A program made the position numbers and the translations under genes. The notes under the pieces are model-generated. The model saw only the letters and a program-made list of their open reading frames with translations. It was not told the DNA's origin and did not search any database. A stretch of 64,000 nt of DNA, from the NCBI GenBank assembly GCA_963829055.1, contig CAWHHI010000009.1, positions 148,206 to 212,205 of the forward strand. The letters are read 5' to 3'. Position 1 is the stretch's first letter, and each line of letters starts with the position of its first letter. This stretch comes from an uncultured Gemmatimonadaceae bacterium (lineage in GTDB: Bacteria > Gemmatimonadota > Gemmatimonadetes > Gemmatimonadales > Gemmatimonadaceae). Below are positions 1 through 62,044 of this stretch, piece after piece.

Positions 1-681
1 CTCACGGTGGCCACCGCGGCCAACCGGGCCGAGTTGCGGAGCGCGGCGTTAGGCGGCCGGGCCAGGGTGAAGCTCATGCTCGGCGATTTCGCCGGGGCGC
101 GCGCCGACGCACAGCAGGTCCCGGTGGGCTTCGTGCTCCGCGCACTGTACGGCAATAACACGCGCGAGAACAATGCGGTGGCGATCAATGCCACCACGCT
201 GATTCGCCGGGAGGCCGGCGTGAACCCGCGTTTCTACAAGGGCGATCCGCGTTACAAGACGGACCCGCGCACGTCGTTCCGCGACAAGGGCGATACGGCG
301 AAGGGTCCCGATCCGACGCGACAGTTCGTGGAGCAGCTCAAGTACCCGGCCCGGGATACGCCGATTCCGGTGTTCACATGGCAGGAGGCGCGCTTGATCG
401 AGGCCGAGGCGGAGATCCGGTTGAACAACCCGACGCGCGCGGTGACGTTGATCAACCTGGTGCGCGCCGCGGCGAACCTTCCGGCGTACACGGGGCCGGC
501 GACCCAACAGGCGGTGCTGGACCAGCTCATCTACGAGCGATCAGCGGAGCTGTGGCTTCAGGCGCAGAGTCTCAACGACTGGCGGAGGTTCAATCTCACG
601 TTCACGCCGCAGCCGAGAGACAAGTGCTTCGAGATCGGCCAGTCGGAGTGGGAGACCAACCCGAACCTCGGCGCGAAGTAG
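1..681 (+). CDS. RagB/SusD family nutrient-uptake outer membrane lipoprotein, C-terminal part (5' end outside window)
   Basis: SusD C-terminal motifs 'WQEARLIEAEAE', 'AVTLINLVRAAA', 'ERSAELWLQ..LNDWRR', 'SEWETNPN'. Confidence 0.85.
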   Translation, partial: LTVATAANRAELRSAALGGRARVKLMLGDFAGARADAQQVPVGFVLRALYGNNTRENNAVAINATTLIRREAGVNPRFYKGDPRYKTDPRTSFRDKGDTAKGPDPTRQFVEQLKYPARDTPIPVFTWQEARLIEAEAEIRLNNPTRAVTLINLVRAAANLPAYTGPATQQAVLDQLIYERSAELWLQAQSLNDWRRFNLTFTPQPRDKCFEIGQSEWETNPNLGAK

Positions 682-694
682 CCGCTGCGACGGG

Positions 695-726
695 AATTGG
701 GGTCAGACTCGAGTCTGACCCCAATT
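695..726. repeat. Perfect 32-bp palindrome AATTGGGGTCAGACTCGAGTCTGACCCCAATT (REP-like, copy 1)
   Basis: Self-complementary around CTCGAG; starts 13 bp after the susD stop. Confidence 0.9.
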
Positions 727-750
727 ACGTAGCAACAGAATGATACAGAC

Positions 751-774
751 GGGGTCAGACTCGAGTCTGACCCC
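751..774. repeat. 24-bp palindrome GGGGTCAGACTCGAGTCTGACCCC (REP-like, copy 2)
   Basis: Identical to the core of 695-726. Confidence 0.9.
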
Positions 775-982
775 AACTCGCACGGTCTCCTCGGCACATA
801 CCATAGGGCGCGGTCCGCGGCGGCCGACGCCTAACGTTTGGCGCCGGGCCGCTGGCCGGGCGTGAGCACAGCCGCCCGCAGGGTCGGCGGGGACCAGTGA
901 CGTCCGATGCGCGAGGGCGTCGGAGACAGTATGTTCTCGTCTCCGACGCCCCACCGCCATCGATGATGCCAGGACACCCGCC

Positions 983-3900
983 ATGAGCGCCGTACTGCCG
1001 ACCCAACTGCAGAAGACGCTCGGCGACGCGTACCGACTGGAGCGCGAGCTCGGGGGCGGCGGCATGAGCCGCGTCTTCGTCGCGGAAGAGGTGCGGCTCG
1101 AGCGAAAGGTCGTGGTAAAAGTGCTGTCGCCGGATCTGGCGCAGGGGCTGAGCGCCGAGCGGTTCGAGCGCGAGATCAGAACGGTCGCGGGCCTCCAGCA
1201 GGCGAACATCGTCCCGGTGCTCACCGCGGGCGAGACGGACGGGCTCCCGTTCTACACGATGCCGTTCGTCGAAGGCGAATCGCTCCGCGCGCACCTCGCC
1301 CGGGGTCCGCTCGCCATCGGCGAGGTCGTCAGCGTGCTGAAGGACGTGACGAAGGCGCTCGCGTACGCGCACCAGCGCGGCGTGGTCCACCGCGACATCA
1401 AGCCCGACAACGTGCTGCTCTCGGGCGGCACGGCGGTCGTGACCGATTTCGGAATTGCCAAGGCGATCGCGCCGCGAAGCAAGGCGTTGGTCCTGACGGG
1501 ACTCCCGACGGGCGTACTGACGCAGCTCGGCACATCGATCGGCACGCCGGCGTACATGGCGCCGGAGCAGGCCGCGGGTGACGCCGAACGTCGATCATCG
1601 CGCCGACATCTACGCACTCGGCGCGATGGCGTACGAGCTCCTCTCGGGCCATCTCGTTTTTCCTGACCGAACGCCGCAGCGCATGCTCGCCGCCCACATG
1701 AGCGAGCAGCCGCGCGCCGATCGCGACGCTCCGCGCCGACGTGCCCGCGCCGCTCGCGGAGCTCGTGATGCGCTGCCTGGCCAAGGATCCGTCGGACCGG
1801 CCGCAGTCGGCGAGCGACATCGTGCGTGCGCTGGACGACGATGTCGAGCGGAGGCGGGACGCAGGCGATGCCGCCGATCCTGCTCGGCGGTCCGGGAATG
1901 TTTGCGAAGGCGCTCGCGATCTACGCGGCGGCGTTCGTGGTGGTGGCCGATCGTCGCGAAGGCGGCGATCGTCGGTATCGGACTGCCCGACTGGGTGTTC
2001 CCCGGCTCGCTCTTCGTGATGGCGCTCGGACTGCCCGTGGTGCTGTGGACCGGGTACGTGCAGCGGGTCACGCGACGCGCGATGACGGCGACGCCGACGT
2101 ACACGCCGGGCGGTACGCCGTCGACGACGCACGGCACGATGGCGAACATCGCGCTCAAGGCCGCGCCGCACGTGAGCTGGTACCGCACGGCGCGGGGCGG
2201 GATGTACGCGGTGGGCGCGTTCGTCCTGATGATCGCCGCGTTCATGATACTGCGCGCGTTAGGCATCGGGCCGTTCGGCTCACTGCTCGCGGCGGGCCGG
2301 CTGAACCGGCGCGATCGGATTCTGCTCACCGACTTCCGCACGACGAACGTCGACTCCGCGCTCGGTCGCGTGGTGAGCGACGCGGTTCGCGCCGGGCTCG
2401 TCGGGATCGTCCGCGTTCACGCTCGTGCAGCCCGCGCAGATCGTGTCGGCGCTCACGCTCATGAAGCGTGCGCCGGGCACGCGCGTCGACTCCGGCGTCG
2501 CTCGGGAGATCGCCCAGCGCGAGGGGATGAAGGCCATCATCGATGGCGACGTCACGGGCGTGCCGGGCGGCTACATCGTCGCGATCCGCCTCGTGCGCGC
2601 CGATTCCGGCATCGAGCTCGCGTCGTTTCGCGAAACGGGCGACGGGCCGCGAGGGCTGATCGACGCGGCCGACAAGCTCGCGCGCGCGCTGCGGAGCAAG
2701 GCGGGTGAGTCGCTGCGCGCCGTGAACGCGACGCCATCACTCGCCGCAGGCCACCACGAGCTCTCTCGACGCGCTCCGAAAGTACAGTGAGGCCGTGAGG
2801 CTCAACTCCCTCGGCGACGTCGCGAGCGGTCGCGGTCGCGCGCGAGGCCGTCGCGCTCGATTCCACGTTCGCGTCGGCGTGGAGCCTGCTCGGCGCGACG
2901 TTGTCGAACAACGGGCGCAGCCCGCTCGTCCATCGACTCGGCGCTCACACAGGCGTATCGGTACCGGGAGCGACTTCCAGCCGGCGAGCGCGACAGGGTC
3001 ACCGCGCGGTACTTCGCTCTGGGCCCTGGGCGAGACCGCGCGAAGGCGATCGCCGCCTACGAGGCCATCCTCCAGCGCGGCGACAGCAATCCGGGCGTGA
3101 TGGTCAACCTCGGCGAGCAGCTTCGAAGCCGCCGGGAGTACGCGCGCGCGGAGTCGCTGAACATCGCCGCTGCGAGTCGCGATCCGGGCTCTGCGAGCGC
3201 GCTCGGGAACGCCATCGAATTGCAGATCGACCAGGGGAAGTTCGACGACGCCGCAGCGACGATCGCCCGGCTCGAGCAATTATCGCGGGGGTATGGCGTA
3301 GCCCGCCGGATGTCCCTGGCGTTCGCGCGAGGAGACTACCGGACATTTCGATCGCTCACCGATAGCACGATGGGCGCAGGGCCCGAGGCGCGAGCGCGCA
3401 TCGGGTTGGGCGGAGCCCGGTCCCTGGCGCGCCTCGAGGGACGGCTACGCGACTATGCGGTGCTCACGAAGGAAGACAGCGCCGGTTGGCGGAGCGCACG
3501 AGCCGGATGGGAAGGTTCGCGAGATCTCGATCGAGATGGTGATCAAGGGCCCATCGGCCGCCGGGGTCGCGGGGCTCGACAGCGCAATCGCGCGCGTGCC
3601 GTTTCGCGAGCTGCCGATGATCGACCGTCCGTATCTCTCGTCGGCGACCGCGCTCGCGCGCGCCGGCAACGCGGCCAAGGCGCGCGCAATGCTCGCCCGC
3701 TATCGAACCGAGATGACGGACACGTCGATCCGCCGCGAGCAGGAGCCGGAGCTGCATCGCACGCTGGCCGAGATCGCGCTCGCCGAGGGGAAGCCGCGCG
3801 ACGCATTGGATGAGTTTCGACGCGGCGACGTGACGTACGACGGAGCGCCCGCGGACGAATGCGGCGCGTGCCTGGCGCTCGACCTCGCGCGCGCCTACGA

Positions 3901-4219: not shown

Positions 4220-5140
4220 ATGACGACGCGCAGAGAAGCCATTGGCATCCTTGGATCGATCTCGGTCGGATCGCTGTTGGCAGTACCGAAGCTCGGACTC
4301 GCGTCATTGATCGCGCCGCAATCGGGCGCGTCATCGTTACAGCGCGATTCCACGCCGCCGCTCGCGCCGGGCGCGCCGACGTCCCCGGAGCGGCTCGCGC
4401 TCATCGACGCCTTCAAGAAGTCGTCTGACGGAATCCCGCAGAAGTTCGAGGCGCGAACTCACAAGAGCGAGTGGACGATGCCGTACCGCCTGTTCCGGCC
4501 TAACGTGACCGGCAAGCTGCCGCTCGTGCTGTATCTGCACGGCAGCGGCGGATCCGGCGACGACAACCAGAAGCAGCTGGGACTCGGCAACATCTTCGGC
4601 ACGCGCGTGTGGGCGCTTCCGGAAAACCAGAAGACGTTCCCGTGCTACGTCGTCGCCCCGCAGACCGACCGGGGCTGGATGAACTACGGCCCACCCAGCC
4701 CCGGCGACTCGGTGGCGAGGCTCATCCCCGGGTTGGGCGACGGCGCCCGCGTCGCGTTCGAGCTCGTGGACGCGCTGCGCAGGGAGCTCGACATCGACGA
4801 GCGGCGCATCTACATCACCGGACAGTCGATGGGCGGCGGCGGTGTGTGGCACATGACCGCGCATCGCCCGCGCTTTTTCGCCGCGGCGGTCACCTGCTGC
4901 GGCAGTGCGACGCGCGAGGACGCCACGCAATCAGCCGCGACGCCGGTGTGGAACTTCCACGGCGACGCCGACAAGACCGTTCCTCTCGCCGTGTCGCGCG
5001 ACCGCATCGCCGCACTGAAGAAGGCGGGCAGCCACCCACTGCACACGGAGTACGCCGGCGTCGGCCACAACTCCTGGGAGTGGGCGTACACCGAGCCAGC
5101 GCTGGTCAGATGGATGTTCTCCAACCGCCGGCCAGCCTGA
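4220..5140 (+). CDS. Tat-exported alpha/beta-hydrolase (predicted peptidase/carboxylesterase, COG4099-like)
   Basis: 'TTRREAIG' twin-arginine signal, LYLHGSG, GQSMGG nucleophile elbow, FHGDADKTV, GVGHNSW. Confidence 0.85.
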   Translation: MTTRREAIGILGSISVGSLLAVPKLGLASLIAPQSGASSLQRDSTPPLAPGAPTSPERLALIDAFKKSSDGIPQKFEARTHKSEWTMPYRLFRPNVTGKLPLVLYLHGSGGSGDDNQKQLGLGNIFGTRVWALPENQKTFPCYVVAPQTDRGWMNYGPPSPGDSVARLIPGLGDGARVAFELVDALRRELDIDERRIYITGQSMGGGGVWHMTAHRPRFFAAAVTCCGSATREDATQSAATPVWNFHGDADKTVPLAVSRDRIAALKKAGSHPLHTEYAGVGHNSWEWAYTEPALVRWMFSNRRPA

Positions 5141-5201
5141 TCGCGCGACGAGCATAACGCGCGATCGGCGTCGCGTGCGATCGGCCGAACGCAGGCCATG
5201 C

Positions 5202-6053
5202 CTAACGCGGACGACGCTCCGCCACGACGATCCGCATGATTCGCCCCGCTCGCGTGTTCACCGTGCCCGTCGCGTAACGCCTCGCCCAATCCTCGACGCC
5301 GGAATCATCGGCCACCTGGAACCCGGCGGCGCGGAGGTCCGCCGCCATCTCCTCGGCTGACCACTTGCTCTTCGCCGGCTCGCCCAGCAGACGCAGCAGC
5401 AATGCCGCGAAGCCCCGCCGCATTTCCGTATGGTAGTTCACGATCAGCGTCGACCCCTCGGCGCTTCGCGACGCGACATTGGCGAGCGTCGACTTCATCG
5501 CGTCGTGCGTGAGATACATGACGACGCCTTCCCAGATCCAGCACGTTGGACGCGCCGCATCGTGGCCGGCACGCGCGAGCGCGGTGTCCAGCGACTCACG
5601 CTCGAAGTCCACCGGCACGAACGTCACCTCGGCGATCGCGTGCGGAAGCCTGTCGAGATGCGCGCGCTTCACCGCCTGCGTCGCGGGGTGATCGACCTCG
5701 AACACGCGGACGCCCGCGAGCTCGCTCATACGCCAGGCACGCCCGTCCAATCCCGCGCCGAGGATGACCAGCTGCGCCGTACCGCGTGTAACTGCCGCCT
5801 GCACGGCTGCATCAATGGTTGCCGTCCGCAGGGCCATCATGTCCGCCGATACACGCGCGGCCGCGAGCGTCACGCTCTCGCGACCGCTCCGTACCTGCTG
5901 CTCGATCTTCTCCAGTCGCCTTAGCCACTTCGCGTTCAGAAAGACCCGCGCGGTGGGATCGCGGAAATCGCGCACGTGCGACGCGCCCACATCCGCGACG
6001 GCGCGCATGTAGGCGACCATCATCGCAGTCCTGCTGGCGCGCTCCGCGATCAC
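5202..6053 (-). CDS. SAM-dependent methyltransferase (LCM/TIGR00027-like)
   Basis: QLVILGAGLDGRAWR, FEVDHPATQ, WEGVVMYL; likely GTG start at 6053. Confidence 0.9.
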   Translation of the reverse strand: MIAERASRTAMMVAYMRAVADVGASHVRDFRDPTARVFLNAKWLRRLEKIEQQVRSGRESVTLAAARVSADMMALRTATIDAAVQAAVTRGTAQLVILGAGLDGRAWRMSELAGVRVFEVDHPATQAVKRAHLDRLPHAIAEVTFVPVDFERESLDTALARAGHDAARPTCWIWEGVVMYLTHDAMKSTLANVASRSAEGSTLIVNYHTEMRRGFAALLLRLLGEPAKSKWSAEEMAADLRAAGFQVADDSGVEDWARRYATGTVNTRAGRIMRIVVAERRPR

Positions 6054-6060
6054 GGTCGGA

Positions 6061-7359
6061 TCACTGCTCAGCCTCCGGAGCGGCCGTGACCACACTTGGT
6101 CCGCGCATCGTGGCCGATGAGAACACGAACAACGCGGCGGCCGAGAGTCCGAGGACGAACATCGTCGTCCATGTCGTTGGCGCCCCGACGCGGTCGAGCA
6201 GGAACGCGCCGAGCCACGGGCCGACGATCAGCGCCAACGACATGGAGCTGCTGAACATGCCCATGTACTCGCCCGTCTTTCCGGGCGGCGCCAGCGCGGC
6301 CACGTAGGCGACGCTCGTCGGGAAGAAGATCATCTCCCCGAACGTCCAGATGATGACGGTGATCGCGATCGGGATCGTGGTGGTGGCTATCGCGAGTCCG
6401 CCGAATCCGACGGCGAACAGTCCCGTCGCGAGCGCGATGGCGATGCGCGTCGTCCAGTGCGACATCGCGATGTTGAGCGGAACCTCGATCGCGACGATGA
6501 CGAGCGTGTTCAGCACGAACAGCCCGCCGTAAAACGACTCGCGGTAGTGCAGGTCGCGCACGAGGTACAGCGGCATCGCGCCCTGGTGCTGCGAGAACAC
6601 GATGTTCACCAGAAACGCCGTCGCGAAGAACAGCATCGCGGTGCGGTCGTGCCAGACGAGCGATGGCGCGAAGCGACCCTGTTTATTCGTCGGATGCTCG
6701 GCGCTGTGCGCACGCGGTGGGGCGAGCAGGTGGCGGTTCCTCGAGAGCAGCACCGTGAGAACGGTGGCCGCGGCCAGGGACGTGAGCCCGTCCACGACGA
6801 AGAGCAGCGGGAACGACACGACGGCGAGAAACCCGCCCACGGCCGGTCCGATGCTCATGCCGAGATTGACCGCGAGTCGATTCACGGCGATCGCGGCCTT
6901 TCGGCGATCGGGCGTCGTCGATCCGGTAAGAATGGACATCGTCGCCGGACGAGCGGCATCGGCGACCACCGCCCAGAGAAACGTGAGTCCGACGACGACG
7001 ATGAAGTCCTTCGCGAGCGGTATGATGAGCAGGACGACGCCTGTGAGCGCGAGCGACGCCCGGAGGACGACGAAGGGCCCCACGCGGTCCGCGAGCCGCC
7101 CGGCGATCGGCGCGGTGACGAGTCCGCCGACGCCGTACGCGCTGACGGCGAGCCCGGCGACCGATGCGGAGATCCCCAGGTATCTCGTGAGATAGAGCAC
7201 GAGAAACGGCACGGCCATCATCCCCGCGCGATTGACGAACGTCGTCGCGGCAATGATCCAGACTTCGGCCGGGAGTCCGCGAAGACCGCGGTACGGATTC
7301 GGGAGTGCCAGGGTCAGCCTAACGCCGTGAGTCCGGAAGGAGTGTGCCCACGCCATCAC
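6061..7359 (-). CDS. MFS transporter
   Basis: 12-TM pattern, motif A 'GRLADRVG'. Confidence 0.9.
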   Translation of the reverse strand: MMAWAHSFRTHGVRLTLALPNPYRGLRGLPAEVWIIAATTFVNRAGMMAVPFLVLYLTRYLGISASVAGLAVSAYGVGGLVTAPIAGRLADRVGPFVVLRASLALTGVVLLIIPLAKDFIVVVGLTFLWAVVADAARPATMSILTGSTTPDRRKAAIAVNRLAVNLGMSIGPAVGGFLAVVSFPLLFVVDGLTSLAAATVLTVLLSRNRHLLAPPRAHSAEHPTNKQGRFAPSLVWHDRTAMLFFATAFLVNIVFSQHQGAMPLYLVRDLHYRESFYGGLFVLNTLVIVAIEVPLNIAMSHWTTRIAIALATGLFAVGFGGLAIATTTIPIAITVIIWTFGEMIFFPTSVAYVAALAPPGKTGEYMGMFSSSMSLALIVGPWLGAFLLDRVGAPTTWTTMFVLGLSAAALFVFSSATMRGPSVVTAAPEAEQ

Positions 7360-10144: not shown

Positions 10145-10153
10145 AGCGCTTCC

Positions 10154-16531: not shown

Positions 16532-16544
16532 CTTCGTTAGGCGC

Positions 16545-18075: not shown

Positions 18076-18111
18076 ACTGCTCCTTCCTATGGCCTCCTTC
18101 CTGAGGCCTCG

Positions 18112-23657: not shown

Positions 23658-23764
23658 GGAACTCCCCTCACCGGCGGTCTGCGTCGTGGAAGAGCGGCGG
23701 CGCGATGCTGTGGTCGTTAGGCGCTATGGGCCCGAACGCGCGCGGTGCGGACAGTCCTGGCAGC

Positions 23765-25496: not shown

Positions 25497-25500
25497 CGCC

Positions 25501-44315: not shown

Positions 44316-44362
44316 GCCGAGCGCCTCGTACCGCGACGCGCGCAGTCTACCGGACGCGGTCG

Positions 44363-45796: not shown

Positions 45797-45805
45797 GTGG
45801 CCCAG

Positions 45806-47801: not shown

Positions 47802-47902
47802 CCCAGCGTGGTCGTAGGGCTCGATCGACATTGTCGTTAGGCAGGTTGGCGGGAGATGGCGCCGTTCCTCTTGAACGGCGCCATCGACGCGCCGGGCTGT
47901 TG

Positions 47903-53630: not shown

Positions 53631-53965
53631 TCGCCTGCGCTCGCGCGTCTCCCGTGGTCCGACATCGCTGACGCGCGCGTTCATCTTCCGGCGTTAGGCA
53701 CGGCCGCCGCGAACGCTCGAACAGCTCCACGGGGTTCCCATCGGGGAACCAGCATCTACGATGAATGCCGGCCACTGACACCGCCACGACACGGATCCCT
53801 CAGCGCGGCCTCCGAGCGACTGCGCGATCGCGAGGATGCTTGAACGGCATTGCGCCGTCATTTCCAACGCGCTGGTCAGGAGGGAGTCGGCCTCGAGACG
53901 CAACCATTGCTGCAACGTACCCGTCTGAATACCCATATCGACTCCAGACACTCAACCCTCCAGGA

Positions 53966-56440
53966 ATGCCCGCGAACCGCGACCGCAAGTTGCTCGCCGA
54001 GGTGCGCCAGGACGTCGCGTACGCCGTGCGACAGCTCGTCCGAGCGCCGGCGTTCACGGCGGTTGCCGTGCTGACTCTCGCGTTAGGTATCGGGGCCACG
54101 ACGGCCATCTTCAGCGCCGTGCTGGAGTGTGGTGCTGCGACCGTTCCCGTTCGCGCATCCGGACCGCGTGGTCCTCGTCACGGAGCGCTGGCAGGGAAGT
54201 GACGGAGATGTCTCCGACGGCAACTTCGTCGACTGGTACGCGCGCCAGACGGCCTTCGAGCGGCTCGCCGCGGAACAGTTCACCAACTTCACGCTCGCCA
54301 ACGCGAGCTCGACCGACCGGCTCACCGGCGCCCTGGTCACGAAGGACTTCTTCGCCGTCTTCGGCGTGCGGCCCGCGTTCGGGCGCACGTTCAGTCCGGA
54401 GGAGGACGAGCCGGGCGCCGACGGCGTCGTCGTGCTCTCCGACGCGCTGTGGCGGACGCACTTCGGCGCCGACCGTCGCGTCGTTGGGCAGCAGGTGCAG
54501 CTCAACGGACGCCCGCGCACCGTGATCGGCGTGATGCCGCCGTCGTTCGACCCGACGACGTCGGGCGAGCAGCTGTGGGTGCCGGCGGCGTTCACGCCGG
54601 AGCGCAAGGCGCAGCACGACCAGCATCACAACACGCGTGGTCGGCCTGCTCGACGCCCGGCGCGTCGGCGACGCGCGCGCAGGCCGAGCTGGCCGCGGTG
54701 CAACGGGAGCTGAACGCCCGCTATCCGAATCAGAACGGCACGCGCGGCGTCAGCGTGCGGCCGTTCGCCGAGGTCGTCGTCGGCGACTACCGGCAGCGGC
54801 TGTGGGTGACGTTAGGCGCCGTCGGGTTCGTGCTGCTGATCGCGTGCGCCAACGTGGCGAACCTGCTGCTCGCCCGCGGCGCGGCGCGCGCCAAGGAGCT
54901 GGCCGTGCGCACCGCGTTAGGCGCGAGCCGAGGCCGCATCGTGCGGCAGCTGCTCACGGAGAGCCTGGTGCTCGGTCTCGCCAGCGCGGCGATCGGCCTC
55001 GTTCTCGCGTACGCGGGCATGACGGGTGCTCGTCGCGGCGGCTCCCGCGGGGATCCCGAGGCTGGGTGAGACGCGCGTCGACCTCGCGGTGCTCGCGTTC
55101 GCGGTGAGCGTGGCGCTCGTGAGCTCGGTGGTGTTCGGTCTCGTGCCGTCGCTCCGCGCGTCGAAGCAGGACGTGCAGTCGACGTTGCGCGATGGAGGAC
55201 GCGGCGCGGGTGTGGTGCGCGACCGGGTGCGTCAGGCGCTCATCGTCGCCGAGGTGGCGCTCGCGTGTACGCTGCTGGCCGGTGCTGGGCTGCTCGCGCG
55301 CAGCGCACTCTACCTCCAGCACGTGAAGACCGGCTTCGATCCGAACGGCCTGGTAACCGCGCGCGTGGCGCTGCCGGAGGTGAAGTACAAGGAGCCCGCT
55401 CGCGCACTCCAGGCGTACCACGCGCTCATGGAGCAGCTCGCGAGGCTCCCGGGCGTGCAGTCGGCATCGCTCGGCGTCGACCGCGCCACTCGTCGGTGGC
55501 GATTTCACCAATGGAATCACCGTCGAAGGGCAGCCGGCGACGGACCTCGAGCATGTCCTCCAGGCGGCGTCGCGCTTCGTCGTACCGCGGTACCTCACGA
55601 CAGTGCGCATTCCGCTCGTGCGCGGCCGCGACTTCACGTCCGCGGACGTGGCGGGAAGAGAGCGCGTGGCGATCGTGAGCGAGTCGTTCGCCGAGCGCGC
55701 GTGGCCGAACCAGGATCCGATCGGCAAGCGCTTCACGTGCTGCGATGGCAGCCCGGACGACCCGCGGTGGCGTACGGTCGTCGGCGTCGTCGGTGATGTG
55801 CGCGCGGACGGGCCGACGGCCGGACTCCAGCCGCAGTTCTACTTGCCCGTCGACCAGATGCCGGTCGAGGCGTGGGACTGGACGGGTCGCGCGATGACGG
55901 TCGTCGCGCGCGTGGACCGCGACGACGACGCGCGACGTGGCGAACGTGATGGCGGCGATCCGCGCGGCAGTGCGCACCGTGGACCCCGGGATTCCCGTGT
56001 ATCGCATGCGACCGATGCGCGACCTGGTGCGCGGCTCCACAGCGGAAGCGCGCTTCAACACGCTGCTGTTGGGCCTCCTCGGCGCCGTGGGGCTCGCGCT
56101 CGCGATGGTCGGCATCTACGGCGTCGTCGGCTATGTCGTCGCTCAGCGCACCACGGAGATCGGCATCCGCATGGCGTTAGGCGCCACGCCGGGCAACGTG
56201 GTCCGGCTGCTCGCGCTCCAGGGGACGCGTCCGATCCTGTTGGGCATTGGCGTTGGGACGGCGCTCGCGTTCGTCGCGATGCGGCTGCTGCGCACGGCGG
56301 TCTACGGCGTGAGCCTCAGCGACCCGATGTCACTCGCGGGCGCGGCCGCGATGCTGTTTCTCGCCGGCCTGACGGCGGCGCTGGTGCCGGCGCGGCGCGC
56401 AACGCGGGTCGATCCGGCGCGTACGATCATGCGGGGTTGA
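53966..56440 (+). CDS. ADOP-family ABC permease lacking the usual N-terminal extension and padR partner (several frameshifts)
   Basis: '[10 protein letters not shown]', '[13 protein letters not shown]', '[15 protein letters not shown]', '[10 protein letters not shown]'. Confidence 0.82.
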
Positions 56441-56471
56441 GGCGGACGCGTCTGAGGGCCATCCTAACCGG

Positions 56472-57716
56472 ATGCCACAACCAGCCGGTTCCACCAGCGT
56501 AGAGCCCGCTCCTTTCAGCGGGCGAGTGCACATCCTCGGCGCAGGACCAGTGGGTCTCCTGCTGACCGCATTGCTCCAGTCGATCGGACGGAGTCTCTGT
56601 CCGCCTCTATGAGAAACGACGCGAGTACTCGCGCACGCGGATGGTGCAGCTCGCGTCGTTCCTCGTGGCGGACTCGATCGACGCGTACTGTCACGATCAC
56701 ATTGATGACGAGAGCGTCGTCGCCATCTTCGACCCCCAGGAGCTGAGCGAGCGGCTGGCATTCAGGCGATCCATCCCGCCGGACCTGATGGATCTGCTTC
56801 GCGACTGGACTCTCGGTTTCTGCCCACTCAAGGCGATCGAGCGGTCACTGAGCGATCTCATCGATGCGCGCGATCGACCTCCGTCGAGCGCACGACGGCG
56901 GTCGTCACGGCGCAGGACGCGATGGCGATGCTCGAGCCGGGGGACGCGCTGATCGACTGCACGGGGAGCAAGTCGGTGCTGCGAGACCATCTCGCGCCCG
57001 GCGCAGGCGGCGTGGACGACGGTGGGAACACGCTCAAGATCCGCCTCGAATATGCGCTCGTCGTCACCTTTCTGTACGGGCAGCGCTACGATTGCAACGA
57101 GTACTGCAAGTACCTCAAGAACGCGGATAATCCGCACTACAAGTTCATTCCGATGGTGAATCGCACCCACTACGATGGGAGCGTCAGCCACGTCACGGGG
57201 ATCGTCAACATCTCGGCCGAGGACTACGAGGCGATGCCGTCGCAGTTCGACGGTGCGTGGCTGCGCGGCAACTTTCCGCGTGTCACGGAGTCGATGGATC
57301 GTTTCATCGACAAGGTCAAAGAGGAGACGCACGGCGAGCTGCTCGGCGACCTCGAGATCGTGCGCATCCCGCTGGATCTGTACCGGGCGCGCCATGCGAC
57401 CAGCCGGCAGTGGCGCACGTCGGGGCAGCGCGATCATCCCTTCGCCCGCTCGCCGGTGTTCCTCGCCGGGGATTCCGCCATCGGCTCCCCGTACTTTCAG
57501 TCGATCTCGTTAGGCTTCGAGTGCGCGATGTACCTGGCGGGGCTGCTCGCGCGGCGTGACGTGCCAATGCGGGACCTGCTCGATCGGTACGAGCTGTACA
57601 TGTACAAGCAGTGGCTTCGCGTCTACATGCGCAGCAAGATGATCAAGCACAACAAGGATCTGTTCGAGTCGATCGATGAGCCGTTGGCGCTGCTGGAGAA
57701 GCTGCACATCTACTAA
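56472..57716 (+). CDS. FAD-dependent oxidoreductase/monooxygenase-like protein (frameshifts)
   Basis: Read from ATG 56472: 'VHILGAGPVGLLL' Rossmann motif; 'LIDCTGSKS'; 'VFLAGDSA'. Confidence 0.75.
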
Positions 57717-57938
57717 CGGAATACCCCGCCGATGGCCAAGTACGGATTGCAGGCGTCCTACGGTGATGCCGAGAACGGCATGCCGGCTACTACGTGCCGA
57801 AGAACTGGACGTGGGGGATGTCCCTCCGGGACCGTTTCAGGTAGCGACGCGAGGCCGAGCCGGGCGCTCGCGATTGCATCGGCTCCGGTGGGCGCACGGC
57901 ACGAAAGCACGCTCCAATGCGCGCCTAACGCTCCGGCA

Positions 57939-59230
57939 TCATCGCGACCGCATCTTCCGCCGCAACTCCTCCGTCCCGTTCACGACCACGTATAGCTTCG
58001 ACCGTCTTGATTCCTCGAGCAGCATCAGGAATTCGCGGCCGCTCGGGAAGACGTCGTACATCGCATGGCTGATGTTGCGGAGGTACACGTCGGCGAACAG
58101 CGTGTCGCGTCGCTGTACGGCGAGCTCCGGCTGCTCCGAAATGCCGGCGGCGATCATGTGAGTGTTGCTGCGGTAGAAGATCTCTCTGCCGTCAGGAGAC
58201 CACCTCGGCTCGATGCCGCCGCCGGCCGAGACCTGTATTCGCCCGATCCCCGGTGGCAGTGGCCGTACATACACTTCCGGCCGGCCCGACTCGCTCGTGG
58301 CGTAGGCCAGCAGGCGGCCATTTGGCGAGATGGTCGGCAGCCATTCGTCGGCCGGAGTGGCGAGGAATGGCCGCGCCTTGTCGAGCGAGTCGAGCGGGGC
58401 GATCCAGAATGTCGCGCTGCGTTGCACCGGTTCCGACGCGATACGCGGCGTAGCTGTGTGGAGGGCCGAGCGCGACCTCGAGCACGTTCGTGCCTGGCCT
58501 CGCGACGACCTCGCTGGTACCGCTTCCGTCCCACGCCTGCTGCCTAACGACATTGTCCGTTCGGTCACGCCCGATGTACACGAGGTGCCGCCGGTCCGGG
58601 GACCACTCGGCGCGCTGGCCGCCGCCGTCGTGCGTCAGCGGCGTGAGCGCCTGGGAAGCGAGGTCATAGGTCCAGATATCCTGCGCGCCGGACGGCGCCA
58701 TGGTGACCGCGACGTGCCGGCCATCCGGAGAGACGCGGGGAAACTCGAACGGCCGAAGCTCCGTCCCGACGGCCCGCGCGGTGCCAGCGCGAGACACCGC
58801 CCGAAGCCTCGACTGCGGCGACTCGCCGGCGATGTACGCGAGTGTCCCGTTGTCGGCCACCGTCAGCTCGGCCGCGCCATTCGCCTTTACCGCCACGCCC
58901 TCGAGCAGGAGCACCGGCTCGCCCGTCAGACGCAAGGTGCGAAGCGATATCGGCACGGCGTACACCGTGCCGTTCGCGCGGGTAAAAATGACATACCCGC
59001 CCGAGACATACCGCGGTCCCGTGCCCGGGATGCCGAGCTCGGTCACTCGCCCTGTGGCCAGCGTGACCACGCCGAGCTCCGCCCGGTCGAGGCTCGTGCC
59101 CTTCCATATCATGATCAGTGCGGCGTTTCCGTCGGGGAGCACATCGGGCCACCCGTACGCCACGTGCCCGCGTGCCGAGTCCGGCTTCGCGATGAGGGCA
59201 GGCGCACCGCCGTCCTCGGAAATGCGCCAA
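57939..59230 (-). pseudogene. Orphan TolB/PD40 beta-propeller C-terminal half of a kinase-TolB protein (no kinase, no start)
   Basis: Paralogous to the C-terminus of 36547-38598 (SPDG repeats, 'YDVFPSG', 'VVVN..EEL'). Confidence 0.75.
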
Positions 59231-59232
59231 TA

Positions 59233-59667: not shown

Positions 59668-59964
59668 GGGCAGAAGGGAAAGAAGGCCTTCCCGGCGGAG
59701 AAGCGCGTTGGCAGGCTAACGCCAGCTTCTGCTGTGAGCGATGACATCATCGCGATCGCAGCAAGCTACGTTGGCCCGCTCGTCAGCAGCAAGCACCGTT
59801 CGGCCGCCGCGCTTTGTGCATTGGAAATGCTACGATACGCGACCTATTGGTCACGAGTCACTCAGGCCAATGCGATTGAAATTCCTAGTTACGCCCGGAA
59901 GCAGCAGCATCTGAGGCGCGGGCGCGGCGGTGAACGACGGTAGGCGTCAGCTCATCGCTCACGC

Positions 59965-60435
59965 CTAACGACTCGGGATCACGTTTGCATGGCGCACAAA
60001 CAGCCGCCAGGTGCCGTCCTCATTCTTCCAGATGTTGGTGAAGCGGCGCCTGATTGTTTGGCCCGCAACAAGCCCCGCACTGGGCGCATTGCTGAGCGGC
60101 CGCACCGTCTCGAGTCCCATGATGAAGACGAATGGGCCGTCGACGCGGATGAACTCGATCTGGCGCTCGAATATTGCAAAATTGATCACCCCCGATCGCA
60201 CGAAGGTGTCCAATACCGCGTGTTTTCCCGCGACGACCTGGTTGTTCGGCGCATTGACGCTCAGATGATCTGACCACAGGCGCTCGAGAGCGGGGATATC
60301 GCGTTTCAGTGCGGCCAACCGTTCCTCGTTGTCGAGCGCCCGCACTTGCTGTTCATCAGACATCCGGTCTTGTCCCATCACAGTCCTCCCTTGTGATACG
60401 CTGAGCAGGAAGAGTAGAGCCAGTGAACTTCTCAT
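59965..60435 (-). CDS. Secreted DUF4440/NTF2-family protein
   Basis: Signal peptide; 'ALERLWSDHL', 'RRFTNIWKNEDGTWRLFVRH'. Confidence 0.85.
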   Translation of the reverse strand: MRSSLALLFLLSVSQGRTVMGQDRMSDEQQVRALDNEERLAALKRDIPALERLWSDHLSVNAPNNQVVAGKHAVLDTFVRSGVINFAIFERQIEFIRVDGPFVFIMGLETVRPLSNAPSAGLVAGQTIRRRFTNIWKNEDGTWRLFVRHANVIPSR

Positions 60436-60575
60436 ATCGCCACTCCGTGTTGGGGCCGACCGGTCATTTGCCACGGAGGTCTCGGTGGCATACCGTCTAG
60501 TGCGCCCCATATTGGCAGGTGTCGGTGTGGATCGCTCGTCCGTGAAGGACAAAGGCGTCGACTGAGAGGGCCAGC

Positions 60576-61526: not shown

Positions 61527-61535
61527 CTCGGGAAA

Positions 61536-61565
61536 CCGCTTGGCAACTGCAGCGCAACGTTAGGC
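61536..61565 (-). mobile_element. Truncated attC site (left arm only)
   Basis: Minus strand GCCTAAC-GTTGCG-CTGCAGTTGCCAAGCG, 6 bp after the cassette ORF stop; right arm absent. Confidence 0.6.
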
Positions 61566-61571
61566 GGCTCG

Positions 61572-61919
61572 CTAGCGTATCTCGAACGTCTCGTCTTTCC
61601 ACGGCCACACCAGGCGAGCGCGGTAGCCGTCGTCCTTATCGAGCGGCCAGACGTTCGCAAAGTCATCGAAGTCAGGCGGCCACTGATCGCGGTCCAGAAT
61701 CGCTGCGAGTTCAGCCACGGACAGGCGGCGGAAGTAGTAGTCGTCGTCAACCGTGTCAACGGCAACGTACCAGTGCGTGCCGCAACCGCGGCAGCGCGCC
61801 AGGCTGAGCCAAGGATTCCGAGCTCGGAGGATGTCGTAACCCGTGCGCAACAAGTCGGCGGTCTCGTAGCCGAGGTTGATTCGCACTCGATCGCCGCACT
61901 CGGAGCACTCACAGGGCAT
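61572..61919 (-). CDS. Integron-cassette hypothetical protein, Cys-rich (CxCxxC, CxxC; putative Zn-binding)
   Basis: Flanked by attC sites; 'MPCECSEC', 'RCRGCGTHWY'. Confidence 0.7.
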   Translation of the reverse strand: MPCECSECGDRVRINLGYETADLLRTGYDILRARNPWLSLARCRGCGTHWYVAVDTVDDDYYFRRLSVAELAAILDRDQWPPDFDDFANVWPLDKDDGYRARLVWPWKDETFEIR

Positions 61920-61950
61920 CGTCGTCAGAACCGCCGTGATGTTTGTGGCC

Positions 61951-62044
61951 GCCTAACGGCCGAGTAAACCTGCGAGCGAATCCAACGAGAGCGAGCGAAA
62001 CGAGCAATGCTCAGGTTGCTCGACAGGTTCAGCGATCGTTAGGC
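61951..62044 (-). mobile_element. Integron attC recombination site (94 bp)
   Basis: Minus strand R'' GCCTAAC, arm CTGAACCTG-T-CGAGC pairing with GCTCG-CAGGTT (one unpaired base), R' GTTAGGC. Confidence 0.8.

What the first reader, a model, noticed from the sequence alone, without database searches (positions are those of the whole stretch)
48..62044. Pervasive (C)GTTAGGC / GCCTAAC(G) motif, about 1 per kb, forced into genes through rare codons and identical to the integron attC core
Seen: my manual count is about 60 exact GTTAGGC/GCCTAAC heptamers (~37 plus, ~24 minus; e.g. 48, 2258, 4498, 10010, 13174, 13414, 20006, 26109, 31290, 42929, 50371, 54811, 57509), plus ~15 GTTAGG[A/G/T] variants. 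Nearly all are preceded by C. A zero-order estimate at ~68% GC gives roughly 7. The motif sits in every reading frame using codons that are otherwise rare here: TTA-GGC (Leu-Gly), CCT-AAC (Pro-Asn), GTT-AGG (Val-Arg, 42929), GGC-CTA-ACG (Gly-Leu-Thr, 50371), and stop codons. That argues for DNA-level rather than protein-level selection. Established: the density is like Neisseria DUS/Pasteurellaceae USS or cyanobacterial HIP1, and GTTRRRY is the IntI crossover core. Inference: an uncharacterised lineage-wide DNA signal, such as an uptake sequence, a methylation/protein-binding mark, or genome-wide IntI-type recombination targets. I know of no description of it.
Basis: partly seen in the sequence, partly recalled or inferred. 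Interest (0 to 1): 0.9.

Follow-up and report, generated by a model that had tools for sequence, protein, structure and literature searches.

The report
Genome-wide CGTTAGGC word in Gemmatimonadales
This soil bacterium and a patchy set of its relatives carry the exact eight-letter DNA word CGTTAGGC thousands of times, written into genes against their own codon habits, which points to an unknown protein that reads the DNA itself, most likely as a self-tag for DNA exchange.

Summary
GTTAGGC occurs 61 times in the window against 2.5 expected, and 58 of the 61 are CGTTAGGC. The whole 7.8-Mb genome holds 5004 copies, 83 times a motif-masked Markov expectation.

- **Not a longer repeat:** the flanks are essentially free.
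- **Not an assembly artefact:** the word avoids the two stop-producing frames and is as abundant in fragmented assemblies of relatives.
- **DNA-level cause:** shuffling synonymous codons leaves about 100 copies against 2596 observed. Half of all TTA codons lie in the word.
- **No polarity:** 51% lie on the G-rich strand.
- **Short-range repulsion:** copies avoid each other below about 300 bp.
- **Distribution:** enrichment is graded and patchy across three families of one order and was not found outside it.

The word equals the core of this order's integron recombination sites. However, the integron integrase does not co-vary with enrichment, and the word's tolerated variants do not follow the integron consensus.

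My best reading, at about 0.4 confidence, is an uptake or recombination self-tag like DUS/USS. No reader protein was identified.

The parts
47..54 (+). CGTTAGGC, read xCG-TTA-GGC (Leu-Gly)
829..836 (-). CGTTAGGC, frame unassigned
2257..2264 (+). CGTTAGGC, Leu-Gly reading
4498..4505 (-). CGTTAGGC, gene reads CCT-AAC (Pro-Asn)
5200..5207 (-). CGTTAGGC supplying the TAG stop of the LCM methyltransferase gene (5202..6095 -)
7317..7324 (-). CGTTAGGC, frame unassigned
8783..8790 (-). CGTTAGGC, Leu-Gly reading (MacB-like gene)
10009..10016 (+). CGTTAGGC, gene reads Pro-Asn
13173..13180 (+). CGTTAGGC, Leu-Gly reading (CHAT-domain gene)
13413..13420 (+). CGTTAGGC, Leu-Gly reading
16019..16025 (-). GTTAGGC heptamer preceded by T (TGTTAGGC variant)
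16535..16542 (+). CGTTAGGC, frame unassigned
16894..16901 (+). CGTTAGGC, frame unassigned
18110..18117 (+). CGTTAGGC whose complement GCC-TAA-CG supplies the TAA stop of the PhzF-like gene (18112..18966 -)
18415..18422 (-). CGTTAGGC, Leu-Gly reading
20005..20012 (+). CGTTAGGC, gene reads CTA-ACG (Leu-Thr)
20875..20882 (-). CGTTAGGC, Leu-Gly reading
21526..21533 (-). CGTTAGGC, Leu-Gly reading
22882..22889 (+). CGTTAGGC, gene reads Leu-Thr
23715..23722 (+). CGTTAGGC, frame unassigned
25491..25498 (-). CGTTAGGC, frame unassigned
26108..26115 (+). CGTTAGGC, Leu-Gly reading (second MacB-like gene)
26759..26766 (+). CGTTAGGC, Leu-Gly reading
27986..27993 (+). CGTTAGGC, Leu-Gly reading
29515..29522 (+). 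CGTTAGGC, frame unassigned
30866..30873 (+). CGTTAGGC, Leu-Gly reading (M13 peptidase gene)
31289..31296 (+). CGTTAGGC, Leu-Gly reading
31796..31803 (-). CGTTAGGC, gene reads Pro-Asn
33642..33649 (+). CGTTAGGC, Leu-Gly reading (MFS transporter gene)
34287..34294 (+). CGTTAGGC, Leu-Gly reading
34577..34584 (-). CGTTAGGC, frame unassigned
35255..35261 (-). GTTAGGC heptamer preceded by T (TGTTAGGC variant)
36405..36412 (-). CGTTAGGC, frame unassigned
36618..36625 (+). CGTTAGGC, gene reads Pro-Asn
38496..38503 (+). CGTTAGGC, frame unassigned
39528..39535 (-). CGTTAGGC, gene reads Pro-Asn
40376..40383 (+). CGTTAGGC, Leu-Gly reading
41836..41842 (+). GTTAGGC heptamer preceded by G (GGTTAGGC variant)
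42669..42676 (+). CGTTAGGC, Leu-Gly reading (kinase-TPR gene)
42928..42935 (+). CGTTAGGC, read xxC-GTT-AGG-C (Val-Arg)
43872..43879 (+). CGTTAGGC, Leu-Gly reading
44310..44317 (+). CGTTAGGC, frame unassigned
45436..45443 (-). CGTTAGGC, Leu-Gly reading
45790..45797 (-). CGTTAGGC, frame unassigned
47835..47842 (+). CGTTAGGC, frame unassigned
49166..49173 (-). CGTTAGGC, gene reads Pro-Asn
49325..49332 (-). CGTTAGGC, gene reads Pro-Asn
50371..50378 (-).
51303..51310 (+). CGTTAGGC, Leu-Gly reading
53107..53114 (+). CGTTAGGC, Leu-Gly reading
53692..53699 (+). CGTTAGGC, frame unassigned
54810..54817 (+). CGTTAGGC, Leu-Gly reading
54915..54922 (+). CGTTAGGC, Leu-Gly reading
56175..56182 (+). CGTTAGGC, Leu-Gly reading
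57508..57515 (+). CGTTAGGC, Leu-Gly reading
57923..57930 (-). CGTTAGGC, frame unassigned
58542..58549 (-). CGTTAGGC, Val-Arg reading
59963..59970 (-). CGTTAGGC supplying the TAG stop of the DUF4440 gene (59965..60552 -)
61558..61565 (+). CGTTAGGC, frame unassigned
61951..61958 (-). CGTTAGGC, frame unassigned
62037..62044 (+). CGTTAGGC, frame unassigned

Best explanation
CGTTAGGC is a self-tag read on double-stranded DNA by a sequence-specific protein that has not been identified. It most likely acts in DNA uptake or in the recombination of incoming kin DNA, like the DUS of Neisseriaceae and the USS of Pasteurellaceae. In this model, fragments that carry the word are taken up or recombined preferentially. 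An allele that acquires the word by point mutation therefore spreads through the population (molecular drive), even though it uses the rarest codons. One word per few hundred bases is enough, so a second word close by gains nothing. Lineages in which the process is active accumulate thousands of copies, and the others stay at the very low background. SHOWN: extreme enrichment, a DNA-level cause, an exact 8-mer with graded tolerance at positions 1, 8, 6 and 4, no strand or replication polarity, short-range repulsion, patchy and graded spread of the same word within one order, turnover of individual sites between genera, and presence of a DNA import channel and a pilus-type secretin.
For: (1) Enrichment: 5004 copies against 60 expected on a motif-masked third-order background, and by far the most over-represented 8-mer. 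It is present on all 20 contigs at 0.48-0.80 per kb. (2) DNA-level cause: in xCG-Leu-GGC contexts TTA is used 1065 of 2285 times (47%) against a 1.6% genome share. CTA is 54% against 1.9%, CCT 81% against 7.5%, GTT 68% against 7.5% and AGG 60% against 3.1%. 1065 of 2112 TTA codons lie in the word. Synonymous shuffles give 92-112 copies against 2596 observed. (3) Real sequence under coding constraint: only 23 + 14 of 2803 frame-assigned copies sit in the stop-producing frames. 119 of 452 TAA stops and 91 of 985 TAG stops are supplied by the word. (4) Orientation-neutral, like DUS/USS: 2547 + and 2457 -, and 1203 against 1137 on the G-rich strand, while genes are 63% co-oriented. (5) Diminishing returns: the pair-density ratio is 0.22 below 100 bp, 0.44 at 100-200 bp, 0.75 at 200-300 bp and about 1 beyond 500 bp, whatever the relative orientation. 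(6) Graded reader-like specificity: one-off variants are enriched only at position 1 (T 17x), position 8 (T 21x, G 14x), position 6 (T 9x), position 4 (C 2.9x) and position 3 (C 2.7x). They are not enriched at positions 2, 5 and 7. (7) Lineage pattern: all 7 genomes of the genus hold 2500-5100 copies. In 301 genomes of the order, 15 hold 1000 or more, 16 hold 300-999, 8 hold 100-299, and the rest mostly 10-40. It is the top 8-mer in mid-level genomes of all three families. None of 81 genomes outside the order is enriched; the highest count is 70. (8) Site turnover: in the rpoBC region 28 of 69 word sites are intact between rich genomes, against 20-44% for any 8-mer. The usual alternative state is CGCTCGGC (Leu CTC). 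(9) Machinery: ComEC is found in 31 of 31 genomes, a PilQ-like secretin in 295 of 301, and ComEA-like genes in the genomes checked. (10) Parallel: the cyanobacterial octamer HIP1 is now proposed to be an uptake signal (PMC13756078, abstract and section 13 read).
Against: There is no evidence that any of these organisms is naturally transformable. ComEC, the PilQ-like secretin and ComEA-like genes are as common in word-poor relatives, so they do not explain who is rich. No receptor was found: the ComP_DUS family gave nothing in G000, but its control rang nowhere, so that search is uninformative. Unlike DUS, the word does not form inverted pairs at terminators; only 13 inverted pairs lie within 60 bp. 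It also shows no dialects across three families. Occupancy of sites that could carry the word synonymously is 11-47% at the amino-acid level; I do not know whether uptake-driven drive can reach that. The exact identity with the integron attC core is left unexplained. The window, which is not syntenic in same-genus genomes, has a higher density (0.9 per kb) than the conserved rpoBC region (9 in 20 kb). This fits drive into weakly constrained genes but not a simple preference for core genes.
Confidence: 0.4

Rival explanations
1. Methylation-linked tag. The word is the recognition site of the order-wide conserved Type IIG-like N6-adenine methyltransferase, which is encoded in an operon with an SNF2 helicase. 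The methylated word marks self DNA, comparable to HIP1 with its methylases. This may combine with the best explanation rather than exclude it.
For: A protein of about 1000-1130 aa with Eco57I/MmeI-type methyltransferase domains is found in 31 of 31 relatives. The SAM-binding motif (DPACGSGAFL) and the catalytic motif (GNPPW) are invariant in 5 aligned genomes, both rich and poor. Its gene overlaps the start of an SNF2 helicase gene. The best library matches are a Type IIG restriction enzyme-methyltransferase (4e-48), DrmMI and DrmD, all below any curated cut-off. Enzymes of this class read asymmetric words of 6-8 bp (established knowledge, recalled). Its range (f1 51/53, f2 103/113, f3 3/3, f4 3/4, f5 1/1, and 0 of 73 in f6-f12) contains the range of the enrichment. 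A conserved reader would explain why three families share the same word.
Against: It is equally present and apparently intact in word-poor genomes, so it does not explain the gradient. Its specificity is unknown. Many order-specific genes would show the same range. Recognition sites of restriction-modification enzymes are normally avoided, not accumulated. The other methyltransferase families do not fit either: N6_N4_Mtase is in 0 of 8 rich genomes, N6_Mtase in 2 of 8, the C5 family in 0 of 8, and the Dam-like family is patchy.
Confidence: 0.15
2. Biased repair or gene conversion with no function. A mismatch-specific enzyme, analogous to very-short-patch repair, resolves heteroduplexes in favour of the word, so that the word accumulates as a by-product.
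For: Very high occupancy of possible sites. The gradient between lineages could reflect enzyme activity. Intermediates between CTC and TTA are rare.
Against: A process that acts on each site on its own predicts independent sites, but copies repel each other below 300 bp. Known repair biases give modest enrichments (recalled), not 83-fold. No candidate enzyme was looked for or found.
Confidence: 0.12
3. Binding site of an abundant chromosome-structuring protein, with roughly one site per gene.
For: It is orientation-neutral. It shows short-range exclusion of the size of a protein-DNA complex. It is spread evenly over all contigs.
Against: There is no periodicity beyond the exclusion zone. Most relatives do without it. 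Individual sites turn over quickly. No known nucleoid protein needs an exact 8-mer (recalled).
Confidence: 0.08
4. Integron-related. The copies are secondary recombination sites for the integron integrase IntI, or a reservoir for making gene cassettes.
For: The word equals the attC core plus the preceding C. In word-poor relatives the few copies cluster in one-strand arrays that end in ...GCGCCGCAGCTTAAGCGCGATCCGTTAGGC (23 of 24 on one strand in L169). G000 has its own intI with 11 of 12 copies in one orientation beside it. By my rough estimate the coincidence has a prior chance below 1%.
Against: There is no attC-like flank at the genome-wide copies: 0 matches to the attC right-end pattern and near-zero flank information. 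IntI passes its cut-off in 18 of 31 genomes without relation to richness; G002 and G004 are rich without it, while G007, G009, G016 and G019 are poor with it. The variants allowed by GTTRRRY at positions 5 and 7 (G 0.65x, A 0.40x) are not enriched, whereas T at position 6 (9x) is. Insertion targets inside genes would be harmful.
Confidence: 0.07
5. Chi-like signal for an AddAB/AdnAB-type helicase-nuclease, marking self DNA during break repair.
For: It is an 8-mer like E. coli Chi. Two adjacent PDDEXK_1 nuclease-domain genes in G000 (C15:11673-16010) suggest an AddAB-type enzyme. Redundancy of close copies could give the exclusion zone.
Against: There is no replication polarity, at 51.4% against 63% for genes. 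RecC was found in 0 of 31 genomes. An 83-fold enrichment is far above what is known for Chi (recalled).
Confidence: 0.05
6. Artefact of long-read base-calling, assembly or binning.
For: G000 has many frameshifts: rpoB is split, there are fragmented genes in the window, and there are short indels against contigs of public runs.
Against: Stop frames are avoided. No neighbouring word is depleted enough to be a source of miscalls. Same-genus assemblies of 260-1170 contigs carry 2500-5100 copies. Contigs from four studies dated 2017-2024 cover window 20-40 kb with few differences, e.g. 9 in 1468 bases.
Confidence: 0.01

Closest known systems
DNA uptake sequences: DUS of Neisseriaceae (read by the minor pilin ComP) and USS of Pasteurellaceae
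   Same: A short non-palindromic word at about 0.6-1.2 per kb. It occurs in both orientations without replication polarity, inside genes in preferred frames and at gene ends. One-off variants are enriched at tolerated positions, copies are spaced more evenly than chance at short range, and the word is confined to one lineage. The DUS/USS properties are recalled, plus the listings of PMC3630211 and PMC3868556 (titles and abstract starts only).
   Different: It is an 8-mer without informative flanks, whereas DUS has 10-12 bases and USS a 9-base core with flanks. There are no terminator pairs and no dialects. The enrichment is graded and patchy within the order. No competence, uptake bias or receptor is known, and the phylum has no reported transformable member in the papers searched.
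HIP1 (GCGATCGC) of cyanobacteria
   Same: An octamer that is hyper-abundant and written into genes, with lineages that lack it. Its function was long unknown and it is now proposed to be an uptake signal (PMC13756078, abstract and section 13; PMC5861425, abstract start only).
   Different: HIP1 is a palindrome read by two known methylases and shows quasi-periodicity. This word is asymmetric, has no periodicity, and has no identified methylase. In cyanobacteria HIP1 co-varies with pilus and competence genes; here the PilQ-like secretin and ComEC are near-universal in the genomes searched.
Integron attC core site (GTTRRRY, consensus GTTAGGC) cut by IntI
   Same: The letters are identical. The order's own cassette arrays end in CGTTAGGC.
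   Different: The genome-wide copies lack the attC hairpin context, are not arrayed, lie inside ordinary genes, do not follow the GTTRRRY degeneracy, and do not co-vary with intI.
Chi and KOPS (polar 8-mers read by translocases)
   Same: Length, and genome-wide over-representation.
   Different: There is no polarity, the enrichment is far higher, and RecC was not found in 31 genomes.

Membership tests
DUS/USS-type DNA uptake sequence | Short non-palindromic word strongly over-represented genome-wide (about 1 per kb) | tested here: met
   5004 copies in 7.78 Mb, 83x expectation
DUS/USS-type DNA uptake sequence | Both orientations, no replication or transcription polarity | tested here: met
   2547/2457; 51.4% on the G-rich strand; 1522 sense against 1281 antisense
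DUS/USS-type DNA uptake sequence | Competent cells take up word-bearing DNA preferentially | not testable with these tools
   Needs uptake or transformation assays
DUS/USS-type DNA uptake sequence | A dedicated sequence-specific receptor (ComP for DUS) | tested here: inconclusive
   ComP_DUS (PF16732) gave no match in G000, but the control rang in no genome
DUS/USS-type DNA uptake sequence | DNA import machinery present | tested here: met
   ComEC 31/31; PilQ-like secretin 295/301, none over the curated cut-off; ComEA-like genes. Equally present in word-poor genomes
DUS/USS-type DNA uptake sequence | Shared by the related lineage and absent elsewhere | tested here: met
   Enriched in genera of three families of one order, in none of 81 genomes outside it; but most genomes of the order are poor
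HIP1-type iterated palindrome | Palindromic octamer | tested here: not met
   CGTTAGGC is not its own reverse complement
HIP1-type iterated palindrome | Methylated by cognate methylases | not testable with these tools
   No methylome available. A conserved Type IIG-like methyltransferase is a candidate only
Integron attC site | Core GTTRRRY at the right end | tested here: met
   GTTAGGC fits; cassette arrays of relatives end in the same 8-mer
Integron attC site | Imperfect inverted-repeat (hairpin) context with a conserved left and right half | tested here: not met
   Flank information is at most 0.13 bit per position; 0 matches to the attC right-end pattern in G000
Integron attC site | One-strand arrays next to intI | tested here: not met
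   Neighbouring copies are ++ 1339, -- 1250, +- 1198, -+ 1197. Only about 12 copies lie beside G000's intI
Chi site | Co-orientation with replication | tested here: not met
   51.4%
Chi site | Cognate RecBCD or AddAB enzyme | tested here: inconclusive
   RecC 0/31; an AddAB-like pair of nuclease-domain genes is present
KOPS/AIMS polar motifs | Strong strand skew that switches at origin and terminus | tested here: not met
REP/MITE dispersed repeat | Conserved sequence beyond the core, usually a hairpin, mostly intergenic | tested here: not met
   Free flanks; copies lie in reading frames

The most novel reading that the evidence does not exclude
The word is a methylated self-tag read by the order-wide conserved Type IIG-like adenine methyltransferase and SNF2 helicase pair, and it gates the uptake or recombination of incoming DNA. 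Because the tag equals the attC core, every integron cassette of the order carries it by construction. The same system would then bias exchange toward kin DNA and toward gene cassettes, linking natural transformation and integrons through one DNA word.
Probability: 0.08. Interest if true: 0.9.

Novelty: new variant of a known kind. Interest (0 to 1): 0.75.

Why it matters
Sequence-specific DNA uptake is established in only two proteobacterial families, and the function of the cyanobacterial HIP1 is still debated. Here the same kind of signal appears in Gemmatimonadales, an abundant and barely cultivated group of soil bacteria. The signal is clean enough to test: an exact 8-mer, 83-fold enriched, that overrides codon bias.

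- **Natural contrasts:** the graded, patchy spread includes contrasts inside single genera, for example G152 with 66 copies against G124, G156, G212 and G280 with 3200-4100 in genus g40.
- **If it is an uptake or recombination tag:** it would show that such tags evolved at least three times and operate in soil communities.
- **If it is not:** an unknown DNA-reading process is strong enough to claim half of a genome's TTA codons.
- **Practical use:** the word is a sharp marker for binning and for spotting foreign or chimeric segments, as the three 31-50 kb deserts at contig ends show.

Tried and rejected
(1) Independent short-read confirmation through rpoB relatives failed. Scans of genome contigs and metagenome contigs returned only other genera, at 86% identity or less. 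Their loci hold 0-1 copies (L002-L011 and L081-L085), and same-genus records may have been withheld.

(2) Read laying showed that contigs of four runs cover window 20-40 kb at high identity. Only 40 of 773 differences were printed, so I could not read the state of each word site.

(3) Motif conservation could not be measured with the window itself. It is not syntenic in five same-genus genomes, and the hits were paralogous kinase domains. I used the rpoBC region instead, which gives a small sample.

(4) A 'dialect' in G014 (T before the word), suggested by 40 kb, faded with more sequence (21 of 64). I retract it.

(5) GTTGCAGT in a named MAG locus (L004) looked like another iterated word but is a local 20-bp tandem repeat.

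(6) Deserts of 10-24 kb were tested as possible islands. They hold ordinary metabolic genes plus one plasmid-type RepA, and their number fits the exponential tail (66 observed against 75 expected for 6.4-12.8 kb).

(7) ComEC, PilQ-like, ComEA-like, IntI and the four classical methyltransferase families were tested for co-variation with richness. None discriminates.

(8) ComP_DUS gave no match, with an uninformative control.

(9) The apparent depletion of one-off variants (observed/expected 0.4-0.8) was an artefact of a background inflated by the word itself. It mostly disappears with a masked background.

(10) My own gene caller reaches only 69% coding density because the assembly is frameshifted. 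Frame statistics therefore rest on a local 3-periodic Markov assignment and on the 3647 best-scoring genes.

Full report
**1. The observation**

GTTAGGC occurs 61 times in the 64-kb window (37 on +, 24 on -). One hundred dinucleotide-preserving shuffles give a mean of 2.49 and a maximum of 6. Of the 61, 58 are preceded by C, and CGTTAGGC alone is expected 1.1 times. The other three read TGTTAGGC (two) and GGTTAGGC (one). GTTAGG[A/G/T] variants number 19 against 3.7 expected. The unit is therefore the octamer CGTTAGGC. The aligned contexts show no conservation beyond it.

**2. The whole genome**

- The window is G000:C9:148206-212205 in a 7.78-Mb, 20-contig, 67% GC assembly.
- The genome holds 5004 copies (2547 + and 2457 -), at 0.48-0.80 per kb on every contig.
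- The word is by far the most over-represented 8-mer. It is 49-fold above a second-order Markov expectation and 83-fold above a third-order background from which the word itself was masked.
- Over all 5004 copies the flanks carry at most 0.13 bit per position. C is disfavoured just before the word and G is favoured just after it. The only other signal is a 3-base periodicity from coding sequence.
- It is therefore not part of a REP, MITE or other longer repeat.

**3. Who it is**

The rpoB of G000 is closest (82-86% protein identity) to named Gemmatimonadaceae and Gemmatimonadota MAGs.

**4. Artefact excluded**

The assembly has many frameshifts. rpoB is split over two frames. Kinase and MacB genes in the window are in pieces. 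There are short indels against contigs of public runs at 35.1-36.3 kb. This looks like a long-read assembly, so I tested whether the word could be a systematic error. Four results say it is not:

- A local 3-periodic Markov model could assign 2803 of the 5004 copies to a reading frame. Only 23 (CGT-TAG) and 14 (GCC-TAA) of them sit in the two frames that would make a stop. The others are 1149 xCG-TTA-GGC, 748 CCT-AAC, 519 CTA-ACG and 350 GTT-AGG. The unassigned share (2201 of 5004) equals that of random positions (2147 of 5000).
- No neighbouring word is abundant and depleted enough to be a source of miscalls.
- Six other genomes of the genus, assembled into 260-1170 contigs, carry 2500-5100 copies.
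- Contigs of four runs from four studies (2017-2024) cover window 20-40 kb with few differences, for example 9 in 1468 bases. The printed table was too short to check each word site.

**5. DNA-level cause**

These counts come from the 3647 best-scoring called genes (4.23 Mb).

| Context | Codon | Use in context | Genome-wide share |
|---|---|---|---|
| xCG-Leu-GGC | TTA | 1065 of 2285 (47%) | 1.6% of Leu codons |
| xGC-Leu-ACG | CTA | 481 of 891 (54%) | 1.9% |
| xxG-Pro-AAC-G | CCT | 704 of 866 (81%) | 7.5% |
| xxC-Val-AGG-C | GTT | 346 of 511 (68%) | 7.5% |
| xxC-GTT-Arg-C | AGG | 346 of 582 (60%) | 3.1% |

- 1065 of all 2112 TTA codons lie in the word.
- Shuffling synonymous codons within each gene leaves 92-112 copies in ten shuffles, against 2596 observed.
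- At the amino-acid level, the word occupies 24% of [APST]-L-G sites, 21% of [SGCR]-L-T, 47% of x-P-N-[GAVDE] and 11% of x-V-R-[LPHQR].
- The word supplies 119 of 452 TAA stops and 91 of 985 TAG stops. Three of these are in the window.

**6. Anatomy of the signal**

- *No polarity.* Where the GC skew is clear (absolute value at least 0.008 over 100 kb), 1203 copies lie on the G-rich strand and 1137 on the other (51.4%). Genes are 62.7% co-oriented.
- *Short-range repulsion.* The density of pairs relative to expectation is 0.22 below 100 bp, 0.44 at 100-200 bp, 0.75 at 200-300 bp, about 0.87 at 300-500 bp and about 1.0 beyond. There is no periodicity and no dependence on relative orientation. 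The nearest-neighbour gaps tell the same story.
- *No terminator pairs.* Only 13 inverted pairs lie within 60 bp.
- *Graded specificity.* One-off variants are enriched at position 1 (T 17x, A and G about 4x), position 8 (T 21x, G 14x, A 3x), position 6 (T 9x, A 2x), position 4 (C 2.9x) and position 3 (C 2.7x). They are not enriched at positions 2, 5 and 7 (0.4-1.2x). If these were simply decaying copies, all transitions should appear. The pattern looks like the tolerance profile of a reader.

**7. Distribution**

- In 31 near relatives, all seven genomes of the genus are rich, as is one other genus (G014, 6360 copies in 5.1 Mb). G010, G030 and G018 are intermediate. The rest hold fewer than 70 copies, below the reversed-word control.
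- In 301 genomes of the order that are at least 80% complete, 15 hold 1000 or more copies, 16 hold 300-999, 8 hold 100-299, and the remainder mostly 10-40.
- Rich and poor species occur inside the same genus. In g40, G152 has 66 copies while G124, G156, G212 and G280 have 3200-4100.
- Rich genomes include both near-closed assemblies (G164 with 4 contigs, G302 with 5) and fragmented ones (contig counts).
- In mid-level genomes of all three families (G150, G217, G073) the same octamer is the top 8-mer, so there is no dialect.
- None of 81 genomes from other orders and classes of the phylum is enriched; the highest count is 70.
- These tallies include five unpublished genomes flagged by the tool (G013, G089, G209, G263, G340). 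All are word-poor, and they enter only as denominators.
- Related genomes are not independent, so I make no statistical claim across them.

**8. Site dynamics**

I aligned the rpoBC region between G000, G001, G124, G014 (all rich) and G152 (poor).

- Word sites are shared in patterns that do not follow relatedness.
- Pooled over ordered pairs of rich genomes, 28 of 69 sites are intact, against 20-44% for any 8-mer in the same alignments.
- The usual alternative state is CGCTCGGC, the common Leu codon CTC. It is two changes away, and no intermediates were seen.
- G152 has none of the 9 sites.
- The sample is small. Individual sites turn over while the density is kept, which fits a continuing drive better than strong selection on each site.

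**9. The integron coincidence**

- In word-poor genomes the few copies cluster on one strand at spacings of about 550-600 bp.
- These are integron cassette arrays whose attC sites end in ...GCGCCGCAGCTTAAGCGCGATCCGTTAGGC (23 of 24 on one strand in L169; also L171-L173).
- G000 has its own integrase (C20:208041-208958, 265.7 bits against a cut-off of 265). Beside it, 11 of 12 copies lie in one orientation, among small cassette-type genes.
- Against a functional link:
  - The genome-wide copies have no attC context.
  - IntI passes its cut-off in 18 of 31 genomes without relation to richness.
  - The tolerated variants do not follow GTTRRRY.

**10. Candidate readers and machinery**

- ComEC is in 31 of 31 genomes.
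- A PilQ-like secretin is in 295 of 301 genomes, none over the curated cut-off.
- ComEA-like genes are in both rich and poor genomes.
- RecC is in 0 of 31 genomes.
- An AddAB-like pair of nuclease-domain genes is present in G000.
- ComP_DUS gave nothing, with an uninformative control.
- The classical methyltransferase families do not track richness. N6_N4_Mtase is in 0 of 8 rich and 11 of 23 other genomes, N6_Mtase in 2 of 8 rich genomes, the C5 family in 0 of 8, and the Dam-like family is patchy.
- One lead emerged: an Eco57I/MmeI-type protein of about 1000-1130 aa.
  - It has invariant SAM-binding and NPPW motifs, and its gene overlaps the start of an SNF2 helicase gene.
  - It is present in 31 of 31 relatives.
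  - It is near-universal in the order, found in two neighbouring families (f4, f5), and found in 0 of 73 genomes of f6-f12.
  - It matches Type IIG, DrmMI and DrmD models only below their cut-offs.
  - A conserved reader would explain the shared word. But it is just as present in poor genomes and its specificity is unknown. It is a lead, not a finding.

**11. Reading**

The combination fits a sequence-specific reader acting on DNA segments:

- an exact asymmetric word and extreme enrichment against codon bias;
- orientation neutrality and a graded variant tolerance;
- short-range redundancy and turnover of sites;
- restriction to one lineage.

The only known systems with this signature are the uptake sequences DUS and USS, and possibly HIP1, which a 2026 paper proposes to be an uptake signal (PMC13756078, abstract and section 13 read). 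I therefore commit to an uptake or recombination self-tag that spreads by molecular drive, at 0.4. Against it:

- nothing shows competence;
- the machinery does not discriminate rich from poor genomes;
- no receptor is known;
- the identity with the attC core is unexplained.

The rivals are a methylated tag read by the conserved Type IIG-like enzyme (0.15, possibly combined with the first), functionless biased conversion (0.12, disfavoured by the repulsion), a nucleoid-protein site (0.08), an integron link (0.07), a Chi-like role (0.05, disfavoured by the lack of polarity) and an artefact (0.01).

**12. Novelty**

- A search for the exact word, which also matches inside longer strings, found 478 papers. 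The 20 listed did not concern bacterial genome motifs.
- Searches that combined Gemmatimonadota names with uptake-sequence, octamer, HIP1 or transformation terms listed no paper connecting them.
- I saw search listings only, apart from the HIP1 paper.
- Three earlier follow-ups of this scan on other Gemmatimonadaceae genomes reached the same reading. They are AI notes, not independent evidence.
  - the order-wide graded map, with the same word in three families;
  - absence outside the order, and the within-genus contrasts;
  - the 300-bp repulsion;
  - the codon-context and stop-codon shares;
  - the variant spectrum that argues against IntI;
  - the lack of polarity;
  - the negative methyltransferase survey;
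  - the conserved Type IIG-like methyltransferase and SNF2 helicase lead.

Noticed in passing
G000:C6:5440-55037, G000:C6:591808-623330, G000:C11:1-46789 (L161-L168): Three stretches of 31-50 kb without the word, all at contig ends, with GC of 0.66-0.73. They hold housekeeping genes (FtsK, chorismate synthase, DAHP synthase, glutamine synthetase, FolD). At a mean spacing of 1.5 kb such gaps cannot be chance, so they are probably chimeric joins or foreign segments in this MAG.
   Followed up: partly
G000:C20:196001-210000 (L230); L169-L173 in G021 and G019: Chromosomal integrons are common in the order; IntI passes its cut-off in 18 of 31 genomes. In G000 the intI gene and about 11 cassette-type small genes lie on the same strand, with intI upstream, instead of the usual divergent layout.
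   Followed up: partly
G000:C8:73551-78317 (L265); G001 copy L266:3140-8595: A two-gene operon is conserved order-wide: a Type IIG-like N6-adenine methyltransferase of about 1060 aa and an SNF2 helicase of about 760 aa (DrmMI/DrmD-like, below all curated cut-offs). Vertical conservation of such a pair across an order is unusual for restriction-modification or defence genes. The G000 copy is broken by frameshifts.
   Followed up: partly
window 17906-18073; 762 copies in G000: A second dispersed repeat family, TGTCATTCCGAGCG followed by a variable GC-rich stretch that often ends in CGAGTCGAGGAATC. It looks like an intergenic REP or hairpin element. Four copies lie between the genes ending at 17497 and 18112.
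   Followed up: partly
window 983-1666, 38592-39155, 54129-56502; G000:C19:47991-52509: Frameshifted genes (kinase fragments, a MacB-type permease in three or four pieces, rpoB in two frames) and consistent 1-base indels against public contigs at 35123-36224. The assembly has indel errors, so gene calls in it are unreliable.
   Followed up: partly
whole genome G000: The most depleted 8-mers contain TTCGAA, CCTCAG/CTGAGG or GAGGCTTC (observed/expected 0.25-0.33). These may be footprints of restriction avoidance.
   Followed up: no
window 38010-39343: Contig depth in four public metagenomes jumps from about 10 to 65-1500 over this stretch, which holds a protein-kinase domain fragment. Many other organisms or paralogues evidently share it.
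   Followed up: no
window 1-64000: The window is rich in Ser/Thr kinases with TPR repeats, ECF sigma factors, MacB-type permeases and a CHAT-domain protein. It is not syntenic in five same-genus genomes. Its word density (0.9 per kb) is nevertheless above the genome mean.
   Followed up: partly
L004:13957-14057: A 20-bp tandem repeat (unit containing GTTGCAGTTGGCAGCCAAGA, at least six copies) near rpoB in a named Gemmatimonadaceae MAG.
   Followed up: no
whole proteome of G000 (3647 called genes): The dipeptide Pro-Asn is 1.39 times its expectation (Asn-Pro 1.24). This hints that the word may also have shifted amino-acid usage slightly.
   Followed up: no
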